From IMG/VR virus record IMGVR_UViG_3300043446_004500, positions 32,001 through 96,000 of that record: a stretch of DNA of 64,000 bases. One strand, written 5' to 3'. Source of the stretch: a virus. How positions within the stretch are numbered: position 1 is the first letter of the stretch; the number at the start of each line of letters is the position of its first letter. The position numbers and the translations under genes are program-made. Positions 23,765-25,657 of this stretch are shown here, one piece after another. The notes beneath the pieces are model-generated. The model was not told where the DNA came from. It was given only the letters and a program-made list of their open reading frames with translations, and did not search any database.

Positions 23765-24163
23765 ATGTTCAAATTTAGTTTTGGAAAAAAGAAAGCAACA
23801 ATAAAAACAATACTTATACTTAGTTTAATAGTTGCAGCACTCTCTTCTTTTTTTAAAATTGAAGACAAATATATTTGGGATATTATTTACGAAACCTTAG
23901 TAAAGTATCAACCAGATTCTCCACTTATACCAGAATTGCAGAAAGATTCTGGTATAGTGGAAAGAAAATCAAAAAGAACCGTTGATAAAGCAATCTATGA
24001 TTATGAACGGTTGACAGGGGACGATGGAACTGTTAGAATTCCATCACCACGACATTCGGAGAAACCAGTAGACACCTCTGTGTGCTACACTTCCGAATGT
24101 CAGGCATTAGGAGGAGAAATCCGACTCTGTGCTCCTTGGGTTGACGACTGCCCTAAGGACTGA
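23765..24163 (+). CDS. Hypothetical protein with N-terminal TM helix and Cys-rich C terminus
   Basis: CYTSECQALGGEIRLCAPW. Confidence 0.7.
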   Translation: MFKFSFGKKKATIKTILILSLIVAALSSFFKIEDKYIWDIIYETLVKYQPDSPLIPELQKDSGIVERKSKRTVDKAIYDYERLTGDDGTVRIPSPRHSEKPVDTSVCYTSECQALGGEIRLCAPWVDDCPKD

Positions 24164-24169
24164 TATAAT
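24141..24169 (+). promoter_or_regulatory. Sigma70-type promoter for the tRNA cluster
   Basis: TTGACG - 17 nt - TATAAT. Confidence 0.7.
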
Positions 24170-24255
24170 AATCTCACAGGCAACAGGGGTCCAAACCTTG
24201 TGTAAGTCCTACACCTTCCATGCCTCTCAACGATGCACAAACAGGAAGGTCTCTT

Positions 24256-24499: not shown

Positions 24500-24718
24500 A
24501 TGAAGTATATTACACTTATGTCATCAATCTTATTCTTTATGAAGGAAGAAGTTAATTCTATAAACATCGCAAGACTTCTAAGTGAACTTGAAGGTTCATA
24601 TGTCCTCACCAAATATATGGGATTTGAGGATGATATGAAAATTCTTGACGAAATGAAAAAACGATTTTATAAACTTTATTTCAAACTTTATAAAGAAGAA
24701 AAAAATAATGGGGTGTAG
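24500..24718 (+). CDS. Hypothetical protein (start may be 24539)
   Basis: ORF between tRNAs; 3' end overlaps tRNA-Asn. Confidence 0.5.
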   Translation: MKYITLMSSILFFMKEEVNSINIARLLSELEGSYVLTKYMGFEDDMKILDEMKKRFYKLYFKLYKEEKNNGV

Positions 24719-24781
24719 CTCAGCGGTAGTAGCGGGATGCTGTTAACATCTAGGTCGCAGGTTCGATCCCTGCCGCCCCAG
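24709..24781 (+). tRNA. tRNA-Asn(GUU)
   Basis: Acceptor TGGGGTG/CGCCCCA, anticodon loop CT-GTT-AA. Confidence 0.9.
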
Positions 24782-24782
24782 T

Positions 24783-24966
24783 TGATAGGGTTGGAAATGT
24801 CCGATTCTATCATATTTTCACCGCCCTCTAATGCGGTGAAAATTGCGGAAAGTGTCTTCCGCTGGTGATGGGCACTCATCACCGTTCTGTAGGTGCCAAA
24901 TACCCCTTCTGGTTACGACTGGAAGAAGTAAAGAGGGAGAACATAGGTAAAGTTCTTTCCACCTAC
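24783..24966 (+). ncRNA. Highly structured non-coding RNA of unknown family
   Basis: Four consecutive hairpins plus a multibranch domain; complementary loops AGTGTC/GGCACT. Confidence 0.65.
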
Positions 24967-24970
24967 CATA

Positions 24971-25046
24971 TCCTCTGCGTAGTCCATTGGTAAGGACGGG
25001 TGGACAACACACATGGAAACTGGGTTCGATTCCCAGCCAGAGGACA
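24971..25046 (+). ncRNA. tRNA-like element with non-canonical anticodon arm
   Basis: TCCTCTG/CAGAGGA stem, D-like GTCC/GGAC arm, perfect T arm CTGGG-TTCGATT-CCCAG. Confidence 0.65.
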
Positions 25047-25047
25047 C

Positions 25048-25120
25048 GGGGAATTAACTCAGTTGGTAGAGTGACAGCTTTGCAAGCTGTAAGTCAGGGG
25101 TTCAAGTCCCCTATTCTCCA
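25048..25120 (+). tRNA. tRNA-Ala(UGC)
   Basis: Acceptor GGGGAAT/ATTCTCC with G3:U70; anticodon loop TT-TGC-AA. Confidence 0.93.
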
Positions 25121-25147
25121 TTGCATAAATATTTCAAAAAGAGTATA

Positions 25148-25657
25148 ATGGAAAAACTGTTTAAACTCTTAAGTGATGCTCAGGCATCACTTTTTGTTCT
25201 ATTTCATAAAACTTGGGTTTATCATTGGAATGTTGTTGGAAAAGATTTCCAGCAACTTCATACTCTTTTTGGTGGTCAGTATGAGACTATGTTTGAGGAG
25301 ATTGATCGTCTCTCAGAACATATGAGATACTTGAATGTAAAACCTTTGAGTAGTTTAGATCGTGTTCTTGAGGTTTCTAAAATTAAAGAAGCATCAAGTT
25401 CTGCGAATTCTGAGAGTATGATCTCAGATCTTCTTCAATCAAATAATGATTTTTGTGATATGATGAGAGGAATATCTGAAGAAGCAGAAACTCAAAAACA
25501 GTATGCTACAGCAAATCTAGTTCAGGATTTAATGGAGTCTCACGGTAAGTTTGTTTGGATGCTTCGTTCATTCTCAGATTCTGGATCTAAAAAAGTTCAA
25601 GAAGAAGTGGAGGAAGTTGTTGAAGAACAAATAAAAGAAGAAACAACTGAAGAATAA
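25148..25657 (+). CDS. dps: Dps-family mini-ferritin
   Basis: HWNVVGKDFQQLHTLF...EIDRLSEHMR...KFVWML. Confidence 0.9.
   Translation: MEKLFKLLSDAQASLFVLFHKTWVYHWNVVGKDFQQLHTLFGGQYETMFEEIDRLSEHMRYLNVKPLSSLDRVLEVSKIKEASSSANSESMISDLLQSNNDFCDMMRGISEEAETQKQYATANLVQDLMESHGKFVWMLRSFSDSGSKKVQEEVEEVVEEQIKEETTEE

What the first reader, a model, noticed from the sequence alone, without database searches (positions are those of the whole stretch)
24783..24966. Unassigned structured RNA with a kissing-loop pair in the tRNA cluster
Seen: directly after tRNA-Asn come four hairpins at 24783-24812, 24814-24843 (11 bp perfect), GCGGAA-AGTGTC-TTCCGC (24845-24862) and GGTGATG-GGCACT-CATCACC (24864-24883). The last two 6-nt loops are complementary (five Watson-Crick pairs plus one G:U). 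Then GTAGGTG/CACCTAC (24889-24966) encloses a UACG-capped stem and a second stem. The CCTCT loop of hairpin 2 could pair with AGAGG near 24932. The region is GC-richer than its flanks and has no credible ORF. Inference: a tertiary-folded ncRNA processed out of the tRNA transcript.
Basis: partly seen in the sequence, partly recalled or inferred. Interest (0 to 1): 0.72.

Follow-up and report, generated by a model that had tools for sequence, protein, structure and literature searches.

The report
Modular hairpin RNA behind cyanophage tRNA-Asn
The 184 bases after the asparagine tRNA gene of this cyanobacterial virus encode a real, conserved, tightly folded non-coding RNA found in more than 150 related viral contigs and in no RNA catalogue. 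Its "kissing loops" are not supported by covariation and its function is unknown.

Summary
Observation confirmed. All hairpins sit at the stated coordinates. The + strand folds at -74.6 kcal/mol (z = -6.4), and no Rfam family matches.

The segment belongs to a large uncatalogued RNA family of T4-like cyanophages: 161 IMG/VR loci plus isolates S-SRM01 and S-PM2. This scan has met the same family before on other genomes and reached the same verdict.

- **Stems covary.** This holds for hairpin 1 (76 distinct sequences), hairpins 2-4 (42-46) and the 3' three-way junction (18). Conserved G:U pairs put the RNA on the + strand.
- **Loops are almost invariant.** S-PM2 keeps the hairpin-2 loop on an unrelated stem.
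- **It is a chain of modules, not one fixed fold.** The order is always the same: tRNA-Asn, H1, optional inserts, H2, H3-H4, optional junction domain, optional tRNA look-alike, next tRNA.
- **Its start is fixed.** It begins at the tRNA-Asn 3' end, or in two contigs 7 nt after a consensus promoter.

The H3/H4 loop complementarity is real. However, no pair changes on both sides, and the one freely varying position takes pairing and non-pairing bases equally often. The proposed H2 loop/AGAGG contact is not conserved.

Best reading: a small RNA cut out by tRNA-processing enzymes, whose stems display fixed loops to a partner in trans. This part is inferred. The closest analogue is T4 stable RNAs C and D, which are not homologous.

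The parts
24709..24781 (+). tRNA-Asn (GUU), no encoded CCA. Its discriminator G is followed one base later by hairpin 1, so it sets the 5' boundary of the RNA.
   Evidence: ARAGORN; Rfam tRNA at 55.3 bits. In 145 tRNA-Asn genes of related loci, about nine in ten are followed by a full H1.
24783..24812 (+). Hairpin 1 (H1): 13-bp wobble-rich stem with loop AAUG. It is always the first module of the family.
   Evidence: Fold. Alignment A3 of 76 distinct sequences: 96.8% of cells paired, 7 of 13 pairs changed on both sides, and two nearly invariant wobble pairs (G:U in 69 of 76, U:G in 75 of 76). Its 19-nt core is exact in 48 IMG/VR loci.
24814..24843 (+). Hairpin 2 (H2): 11-bp stem displaying the nearly invariant 8-nt loop CCUCUAAU.
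   Evidence: Fold. Alignment A1: the core 7 bp are kept, with compensatory changes. S-PM2 carries the same loop on an unrelated 7-bp stem. One contig (L215) has the loop inverted.
24845..24862 (+). Hairpin 3 (H3): 6-bp stem with loop AGUGUC.
   Evidence: Alignment A4 of 46 distinct sequences: 99.6% paired, 3 pairs with changes on both sides. The loop is identical in 45 of 46.
24863..24884 (+). Hairpin 4 (H4): 7-9-bp stem with loop GGCACU (or a G:U closing pair around a 4-nt loop). The spacing to H3 never varies.
   Evidence: Alignment A4: 100% paired, 4 pairs with changes on both sides. The G:U/G-C alternation at one pair (23 against 20) marks the + strand. Loop position 2 varies G/A/U/C.
24889..24966 (+). 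Optional 3' three-way-junction domain (MD). P1 is 24889-24895 / 24960-24966 and is invariant. P2 is the variable arm, 24901-24930, UACG-capped here. P3 is 24935-24959, with the invariant 9-nt loop AUAGGUAAA.
   Evidence: Alignment A2 of 18 distinct sequences. In the RNAalifold consensus, 11 of 22 pairs are kept through changes on both sides, all in P2 and P3. Present in about 24 of 161 loci.
24972..25045 (+). tRNA look-alike that sets the 3' boundary. It has good acceptor, D and T arms, but a weak anticodon stem, no U33 and a pyrimidine at position 37. tRNA-Ala follows at 25048-25120.
   Evidence: ARAGORN calls it Leu-CAA. Rfam tRNA scores only 25.3 bits against a threshold of 29. Homologous in S-PM2 and in many loci.

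Best explanation
Positions 24783-24966 are one member of a conserved, uncatalogued family of modular non-coding RNAs carried in the tRNA operon of T4-like cyanophages (Kyanoviridae).

**Shown:**
- It is an RNA-level structure on the + strand. Its hairpin stems covary while its loop sequences stay fixed.
- Relatives assemble the RNA from the same modules in one fixed order: H1, optional inserts, H2, H3-H4, optional junction domain.
- It always begins at the 3' end of tRNA-Asn, or 7 nt behind a sigma-70-type -10 box. It always ends at the next tRNA or tRNA look-alike.

**Inferred:**
- It is transcribed early with the tRNAs.
- It is released as a discrete ~190-nt RNA. A 3' tRNA endonuclease (RNase Z type) would cut after the CCA-less tRNA-Asn, and RNase P would cut in front of the downstream tRNA-like element. 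Phage T4's stable RNAs C and D likewise directly abut a tRNA gene.
- The stems are scaffolds. Their job is to present the invariant loops (CCUCUAAU, AGUGUC, GNCAC, AUAGGUAAA) to a partner in trans, either a host or phage protein or another RNA. The C/U-rich H2 loop could pair with purine-rich ribosome-binding sites.

The H3/H4 loop complementarity may be functional, but it is not demonstrated.
For: - **Fold.** z = -6.4 on the + strand, and weaker on the - strand (-66.9 against -74.6 kcal/mol).
- **No Rfam family** here or in 11 related loci.
- **Covariation.**
  - H1: 96.8% paired, 7 of 13 pairs changed on both sides.
  - H2-H4: covariation score 0.214 against 0.128 shuffled, reached by 0 of 500 shuffles.
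  - H3 and H4: 99.6% and 100% paired, with 3 and 4 covarying pairs.
  - Junction domain: 11 of 22 pairs compensated.
  - Conserved G:U pairs would be C.A mismatches on the other strand.
- **Loops matter.** They are nearly invariant across 46-76 distinct sequences. S-PM2 keeps the H2 loop on a completely different stem.
- **Fixed module order** across 161 loci.
- **5' end.** H1 follows tRNA-Asn in about nine of ten cases, although the tRNA-Asn sequences differ widely. In L048 and L032 a TTGACA/TTGACT-17-TAATAT promoter ends 7 nt before H1.
- **Transcription context.** Strong + strand promoters lie upstream in the window. The S-PM2d tRNA operon is transcribed in infection (PMC10976474).
- **T4 analogue.** rnaD and rnaC directly abut tRNA-Arg.
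- **Phage-specific.** Not found in the 151 and 401 cyanobacterial genomes sampled. The H1 core occurs only at chance level in 185,579 prokaryote genomes.
Against:
- No partner or target was identified. The complement of the H2 loop occurs in the phage genome only at chance frequency.
- Constant adjacency to tRNAs and AU-rich linkers would also fit a purely cis role in operon processing.
- The homologue set was gathered with exact-motif scans, so loop invariance is partly built in for H3/H4. However, loci found through H1 or H2 alone show the same loops.
Confidence: 0.6

Rival explanations
1. Cis-acting punctuation. The hairpins are structured spacers that order RNase E/Z/P cleavage of the tRNA polycistron and protect the intermediates from exonucleases. 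They have no function once released.
For: - The RNA is always wedged between tRNAs.
- Linkers between modules are short and AU-rich.
- H1 sits exactly at the tRNA-Asn 3' end.
- The tRNA-Asn lacks an encoded CCA, so an endonucleolytic 3' cut is needed.
Against: - Other tRNA pairs in the same arrays are only 2-3 nt apart with no such spacers.
- Invariant loop sequences on covarying or even replaced stems, and a conserved three-way junction, exceed what a spacer needs.
- Two contigs give the RNA its own promoter instead of an upstream tRNA.
Confidence: 0.2
2. A single tertiary-folded RNA whose H3 and H4 loops kiss within the same molecule, and whose H2 loop docks on AGAGG in the junction domain.
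For: - The six-position loop complementarity is real and specific to this loop pair. It occurs by chance in 0.35% of trials for this pair.
- The loops are nearly invariant, and the H3-H4 spacing never varies.
- A G-to-A change at H4 loop position 2 (6 distinct sequences) and a C-to-U change at position 5 (1 sequence) keep the pairing.
Against: - No pair changes on both sides.
- The variable position is non-pairing (U or C) as often as A, 6 against 6 distinct sequences. That leaves only 4 contiguous pairs, at about -2.5 kcal/mol.
- One H3 loop variant breaks a central pair (L032).
- The stems of 6 and 7 bp are joined by 0-1 nt. From general knowledge of kissing complexes, six-pair loop-loop helices stack roughly end-to-end with their stems, which such a linker cannot span. 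Side-by-side hairpins, as in the purine riboswitch, make only about two loop-loop pairs.
- The H2/AGAGG contact falls to 4 invariant pairs in most relatives. H2 and the junction domain occur independently.
- S-PM2 lacks H3-H4 altogether.
Confidence: 0.1
3. Counter-defence RNA cassette. The modules are decoys or antitoxin-like RNAs that soak up host defence proteins, such as tRNA-directed nucleases or abortive-infection RNases, as the neighbouring abiF RNA is thought to do. This is a specific version of the trans-acting reading.
For: - A bona fide abiF-motif RNA (51.7 bits against a threshold of 37) lies in the same array at 24214-24250. It recurs in related arrays.
- The arrays also hold non-decoding tRNA look-alikes.
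- Presence or absence of modules varies between close relatives, as expected under arms-race turnover.
- H3 and module MZ display UGUC, the U33-G34-U35-C36 string of a GUC anticodon loop.
Against: - No host counterpart of any module was found in the cyanobacterial genomes sampled.
- No toxin or defence gene is linked to it.
- The loops are 6 or 8 nt rather than the 7 nt of anticodon loops.
- The phage record has no TGT or QueC gene.
Confidence: 0.15
4. Decayed tRNA genes or selfish palindromic DNA with no RNA function.
For: - Some modules in relatives contain T-arm-like hairpins.
- One contig has an inverted H2 loop, as happens by recombination across DNA palindromes.
Against: - Compensatory changes, conserved G:U pairs, invariant loops and a fixed order across more than 150 contigs show purifying selection on an RNA structure.
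- Every module is single-copy in this genome.
Confidence: 0.04

Closest known systems
Phage T4 small stable RNAs: rnaC (species 1, 139 nt) and rnaD (species 2, 119 nt)
   Same: - Non-tRNA RNAs encoded inside a T4-type phage tRNA cluster.
- They start 1-6 nt after a tRNA gene, so tRNA processing sets their ends.
- rnaC ends in a T-arm-like element, much as this RNA abuts a tRNA look-alike.
- Function unknown.
   Different: - No detectable homology. Covariance models of H2-H4 and of the junction domain score at most 6.8 bits (E >= 0.5) on the T4 locus.
- Different host clade.
- The cyanophage RNA is modular, with optional inserts, and sits mid-array after tRNA-Asn rather than at the array's end.
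abiF RNA motif (Rfam RF03085) in cyanophage tRNA arrays
   Same: - A small structured RNA placed directly in front of a phage tRNA (24214-24250, 4 nt before tRNA-Arg).
- Recurrent in the same arrays.
- Reported in cyanophage S-CREM1 (PMC9964418).
   Different: - abiF is a catalogued family with bacterial counterparts.
- The RNA studied here matches no family, and no bacterial copy was found.
   Same: Two hairpin loops in one RNA are mutually complementary.
   Different: - In pRNA the pairing is intermolecular and proven by compensatory mutants.
- Here there is no covariation, no experiment, and no link to DNA packaging.
Trans-acting sRNAs with C/U-rich seed loops, e.g. cyanobacterial Yfr1 (from general knowledge)
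   Same: A conserved unpaired C/U-rich motif is held between stable stems. The H2 loop is kept while its stem is replaced.
   Different: - No target identified.
- No Rfam Yfr hit.
- No terminator; the 3' end must come from processing.

Membership tests
Any Rfam 15 family | Covariance-model score at or above the family's gathering threshold | tested here: not met
   No hit inside 24783-24966 at gathering threshold. With E <= 10 there are only chance-level miRNA/snoRNA/YrlA fragments, at most 18.5 bits against thresholds of 38-88. No family covers the equivalent modules in 11 related loci.
T4 rnaC/rnaD stable RNAs | Encoded in a phage tRNA cluster, abutting a tRNA gene | tested here: met
   H1 begins 2 nt after tRNA-Asn, and the domain ends 5 nt before the tRNA look-alike. 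T4 rnaD begins 1 nt after tRNA-Arg.
T4 rnaC/rnaD stable RNAs | Sequence or structure homology to T4 rnaC or rnaD | tested here: not met
   Models R1 and R2, with filters off, on the T4 locus: best scores 6.5 and 6.8 bits, E 0.5-1.4, not on rnaC/rnaD.
T4 rnaC/rnaD stable RNAs | Accumulates as a discrete stable RNA processed from the tRNA precursor | not testable with these tools
The only indirect evidence is transcription of the S-PM2d tRNA operon (PMC10976474).
Intramolecular kissing-loop RNA | Complementary hairpin loops | tested here: met
   AGUGUC against GGCACU: 5 Watson-Crick pairs plus 1 G:U, -5.8 kcal/mol.
Intramolecular kissing-loop RNA | Covariation that preserves the loop-loop pairs | tested here: inconclusive
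   In 46 distinct sequences, 3 pairs are invariant, 2 change on one side only and none changes on both sides. One pair reads U:G 34, U-A 6, unpaired 6.
tRNA / tRNA-like | Cloverleaf detected by ARAGORN or the Rfam tRNA model | tested here: not met
   No call within 24783-24966. The neighbouring 24972-25045 element is a sub-threshold tRNA look-alike.
Intrinsic terminator (for H1) | GC-rich hairpin followed by a conserved U tract | tested here: not met
   The window's H1 is flagged only because TATTTT follows it. In relatives H1 is followed by varied, non-U-rich linkers. The stem has only 4 G-C pairs.
Protein-coding gene | Conserved open reading frame | tested here: not met
   Only 27-64-aa ORFs overlap the region. 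Relatives differ by whole-module insertions and deletions and by paired stem changes.

The most novel reading that the evidence does not exclude
H3 and H4, always joined by 0-1 nt, stack into one short rod with a complementary loop at each end. The loops would then pair between molecules rather than within one.
Probability: 0.06. Interest if true: 0.8.

Novelty: new variant of a known kind. Interest (0 to 1): 0.55.

Why it matters
Cyanomyoviruses help control the picocyanobacteria that carry out much of aquatic photosynthesis. Their tRNA arrays are usually read only as codon-usage aids.

This family shows that the arrays are RNA-gene islands. Besides tRNAs they hold non-decoding tRNA look-alikes, an abiF-type RNA, in one contig a tmRNA, and this widespread modular RNA. 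That composition suggests RNA-level manipulation of the host.

The RNA is a defined, compact and strongly conserved target, and two cultured phages (S-SRM01, S-PM2) are available for experiments. It also revives the fifty-year-old question of what T4's species 1 and 2 RNAs are for.

Tried and rejected
- **Rfam.** Gathering and permissive thresholds on the window, and gathering on 11 related loci, gave nothing for the modules.
- **First IMG/VR pattern.** A pattern demanding the H2, H3 and H4 loops with loose spacing returned only two chance hits in coding DNA.
- **Host origin.**
  - A degenerate H1 pattern in 185,579 prokaryote genomes gave 58 hits, about the roughly 70 I calculated for chance, none in picocyanobacteria.
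  - Model R1 found nothing in 151 cyanobacterial genomes.
  - blastn of the region against 401 cyanobacterial genomes gave only chance-level 17-38-nt matches.
  - These are samples: not found in those searched.
- **Cultured phages.** Only S-SRM01 and S-PM2 match among 50,697 records.
- **T4 homology.** Rejected.
- **Targets of the H2 loop in the phage genome.** Its 8-mer complement occurs twice apart from the RNA gene's own opposite strand, at or below my chance estimate of about 5, and not at ribosome-binding sites.
- **Repeats.** Every module is single-copy in the 153.7-kb record.
- **Queuosine link** (UGU-containing loops next to a Q-family tRNA). There is no TGT or QueC gene in the record, and the H1 loop G varies, so this was dropped to a footnote.
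- **Pseudoknot in the junction domain.**
  - All bases are invariant, so it is untestable by covariation.
  - Only 2 nt would have to cross a 7-bp stem, so I judge it sterically poor. This is an inference.
- **H1 as a terminator.** Rejected, because the U tract is not conserved.
- **Candidate-RNA catalogue.** The 2023 catalogue of candidate viral structured RNAs (PMC10690425) could not be checked for this motif, because no supplementary tables are held.

Full report
**Context**

The window is from a T4-like cyanophage. Rfam finds PhotoRC-II, a group I intron, a glutamine riboswitch and wcaG RNA, together with nine tRNAs on the + strand. It is part of a 153.7-kb IMG/VR record.

The finding lies between tRNA-Asn (24709-24781) and a sub-threshold tRNA look-alike (24972-25045). 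The look-alike scores 25.3 bits against a threshold of 29 and is followed by tRNA-Ala. A DUF7212 ORF precedes tRNA-Asn, and a ferritin-like ORF follows tRNA-Ala. Several near-consensus sigma-70-type promoters point rightward through the array.

- The 190-nt stretch folds at -74.6 kcal/mol, against -47.4 +/- 4.3 for shuffles (z = -6.4).
- The opposite strand folds less well (-66.9 kcal/mol), and there H1 falls apart.
- GC content is 0.47-0.52, against 0.29-0.38 in the coding flanks.
- Only short ORFs overlap the region.
- No Rfam family matches, even at E <= 10.

**Relatives**

blastn against 50,697 phage records found homologous pieces only in two isolates:
- Synechococcus phage S-SRM01 has H1, then H2-H4 after a ~115-nt insert.
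- S-PM2 has H1.

Exact-motif scans of IMG/VR were far more productive:
- The 19-nt H1 core occurs in 48 loci.
- The H2 hairpin occurs in 77 loci.

Together these give 161 loci. A profile search finds H3-H4 in 150 places, as 46 distinct sequences.

**Covariation**

| Module | Distinct sequences | Cells paired | Pairs changed on both sides |
|---|---|---|---|
| H1 | 76 | 96.8% | 7 of 13 |
| H2-H4 together | 42 | 92.8% | 8 of 26 |
| H3 | 46 | 99.6% | 3 |
| H4 | 46 | 100% | 4 |
| Three-way junction | 18 | not counted | 11 of 22, all in P2 and P3 |

- H1 also has two almost invariant wobble pairs. Its covariation score is 0.367 against 0.190 for shuffles, reached by 0 of 500 shuffles, and far above slid controls.
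- For H2-H4 the score is 0.214 against 0.128, again reached by 0 of 500 shuffles.
- In the junction domain, P1 and the 9-nt P3 loop are invariant.
- Conserved G:U pairs fix the strand.

This is a genuine RNA structure under selection.

**Architecture**

I annotated all loci with tRNA calls, motif matches and profile hits. One collinear order emerges: tRNA-Asn, H1, then optionally MB (a T-loop-containing multi-helix domain), MC1, MC2, MX or MY, H2 and MZ, then H3-H4, then optionally the junction domain and the tRNA look-alike, then a normal tRNA.
- The window's arrangement (H1, H2, H3-H4, junction, look-alike) recurs in 8 loci.
- The minimal form (H1, H2, H3-H4) is 106-107 nt.

The segment is therefore not one indivisible fold. 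It is a scaffold with optional domains in fixed order.

**Ends**

Among 145 tRNA-Asn genes in these loci:
- About nine in ten are followed by a full H1.
- Seven are followed by a shortened hairpin at the same place.
- Five have no H1-type hairpin there; four of these have H2 directly after the tRNA.

This holds although the tRNA-Asn sequences themselves differ widely.

In L048 and L032 no tRNA precedes H1. Instead a TTGACA/TTGACT-17-TAATAT promoter ends 7 nt upstream, so H1 starts the primary transcript. S-PM2 places H1 after tRNA-Thr.

The tRNA-Asn lacks an encoded CCA. From established knowledge, such tRNAs need an endonucleolytic 3' cut. The downstream end always meets a tRNA or look-alike, where RNase P would cut. 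The only expression evidence is that reads map to mis-annotated small ORFs of the S-PM2d tRNA operon (PMC10976474).

**The loops are the conserved part**

- The H2 loop (CCUCUAAU/C), the H3 loop (AGUGUC), the H4 loop (G-N-CAC-U) and the P3 loop (AUAGGUAAA) hardly change while the stems drift.
- S-PM2 carries the H2 loop on a 7-bp stem of entirely different sequence.
- In L012 the apical part of H1 is grafted onto the tip of the junction's variable arm.

Stems acting as scaffolds for fixed loops point to recognition in trans. This is an inference.

**The kissing-loop claim**

- **Significance.** The complementarity is real (-5.8 kcal/mol as an isolated duplex). It is specific to this loop pair, arising by chance in 0.35% of trials for this pair but in 8% for any pair among six loops.
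- **No covariation.** Across 46 distinct sequences, three pairs never vary, two vary on one side only, and none changes on both sides. H4 loop position 2 is G in 34 sequences, A in 6, and U or C in 6, so pairing and non-pairing replacements are equally frequent. The U and C variants leave four contiguous pairs, at about -2.5 kcal/mol. One H3 variant (L032) breaks a central pair, and one H4 variant (L199) keeps pairing through G:U.
- **Geometry.** H3 and H4 are always 0-1 nt apart. From general structural knowledge, a six-pair loop-loop helix within one molecule is hard to build from 6- and 7-bp stems with such a linker. Pairing between molecules is geometrically easier.

The claim is therefore unproven, not refuted.

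**The H2/AGAGG contact**

The contact shrinks to CUCU/AGAG in most relatives. H2 and the junction domain occur independently of each other.

**Function**

- No host counterpart was found in the cyanobacterial genomes sampled.
- No intragenomic target or repeat was found.
- No linked RNA-binding gene was identified.

My committed reading is a tRNA-punctuated small RNA that acts in trans through its loops. Confidence in the whole statement is 0.6. I put the existence of a selected RNA structure at about 0.9 or higher, release by tRNA processing at about 0.65, and trans action at about 0.45.

Rivals:
- A purely cis processing or stability role (0.2).
- A counter-defence decoy (0.15), which is a sub-case of trans action. 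It is suggested by the abiF RNA at 24214-24250 and by the non-decoding tRNA look-alikes in the same arrays.
- Non-functional remnants (0.04).

**Comparison with the known**

The nearest analogue is T4's stable RNAs D and C, which abut tRNA-Arg and whose role is still unknown. They share position and presumed processing, but no homology.

Earlier notes of this scan describe the same family in other cyanophage genomes with the same verdict. My analysis was done before reading them, and it agrees.

New in this report:
- The formal negative covariation test of the H3/H4 loop pair.
- The S-PM2 stem-swapped H2.
- The chance estimate for the loop match.

Noticed in passing
window 24214-24250 (+): abiF RNA motif (RF03085, 51.7 bits against a threshold of 37), 4 nt upstream of tRNA-Arg and downstream of a near-consensus promoter (24141-24169). 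It recurs in related arrays (L001, L011, L039, L040). It has been published for cyanophage S-CREM1 (PMC9964418).
   Followed up: partly
window 24972-25045 (+): tRNA look-alike with good acceptor, D and T arms but a weak anticodon stem, no U33 and a pyrimidine at position 37. ARAGORN calls relatives Leu-CAA, His-ATG or undetermined. It is conserved in S-PM2 and in many IMG/VR loci, usually just before tRNA-Ala or tRNA-Val.
   Followed up: partly
L048:1399-1648 (+): A cyanobacterial-type permuted tmRNA (RF01851, 109 bits) lies inside the tRNA array of an uncultured cyanophage contig that also carries the promoter-driven H1-H2-H3-H4 RNA.
   Followed up: no
L215, directly after tRNA-Asn (about 1512-1551): The H2 hairpin is present with its loop inverted: the reverse complement of the usual loop sits on the same stem. 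H1 is absent in this contig.
   Followed up: no
L012:3553-3644 (-): The tip of the junction domain's variable arm carries the apical motif of H1 (UGGAAAUGUCCGA) in place of the UACG cap seen in the window. This shows that sub-hairpin motifs are transplanted between modules.
   Followed up: no
L006, L007, L014, upstream of H1: H1 is preceded by an element that keeps the Asn anticodon loop but has aberrant D and T regions. ARAGORN does not call it a tRNA, so it is a possible degenerate or remodelled tRNA-Asn.
   Followed up: no
window 24500-24718 (+): A 72-aa DUF7212 ORF (94.7 bits) ends 10 nt inside the tRNA-Asn gene. A ferritin/Dps-like ORF (25121-25657) starts right after tRNA-Ala.
   Followed up: partly
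L002 (S-PM2) 1730-1873: The annotated 'putative ATPase' S-PM2p250 overlaps tRNA-Ala and tRNA-Met. PMC10976474 also regards it as a probable mis-annotation inside the tRNA operon.
   Followed up: no
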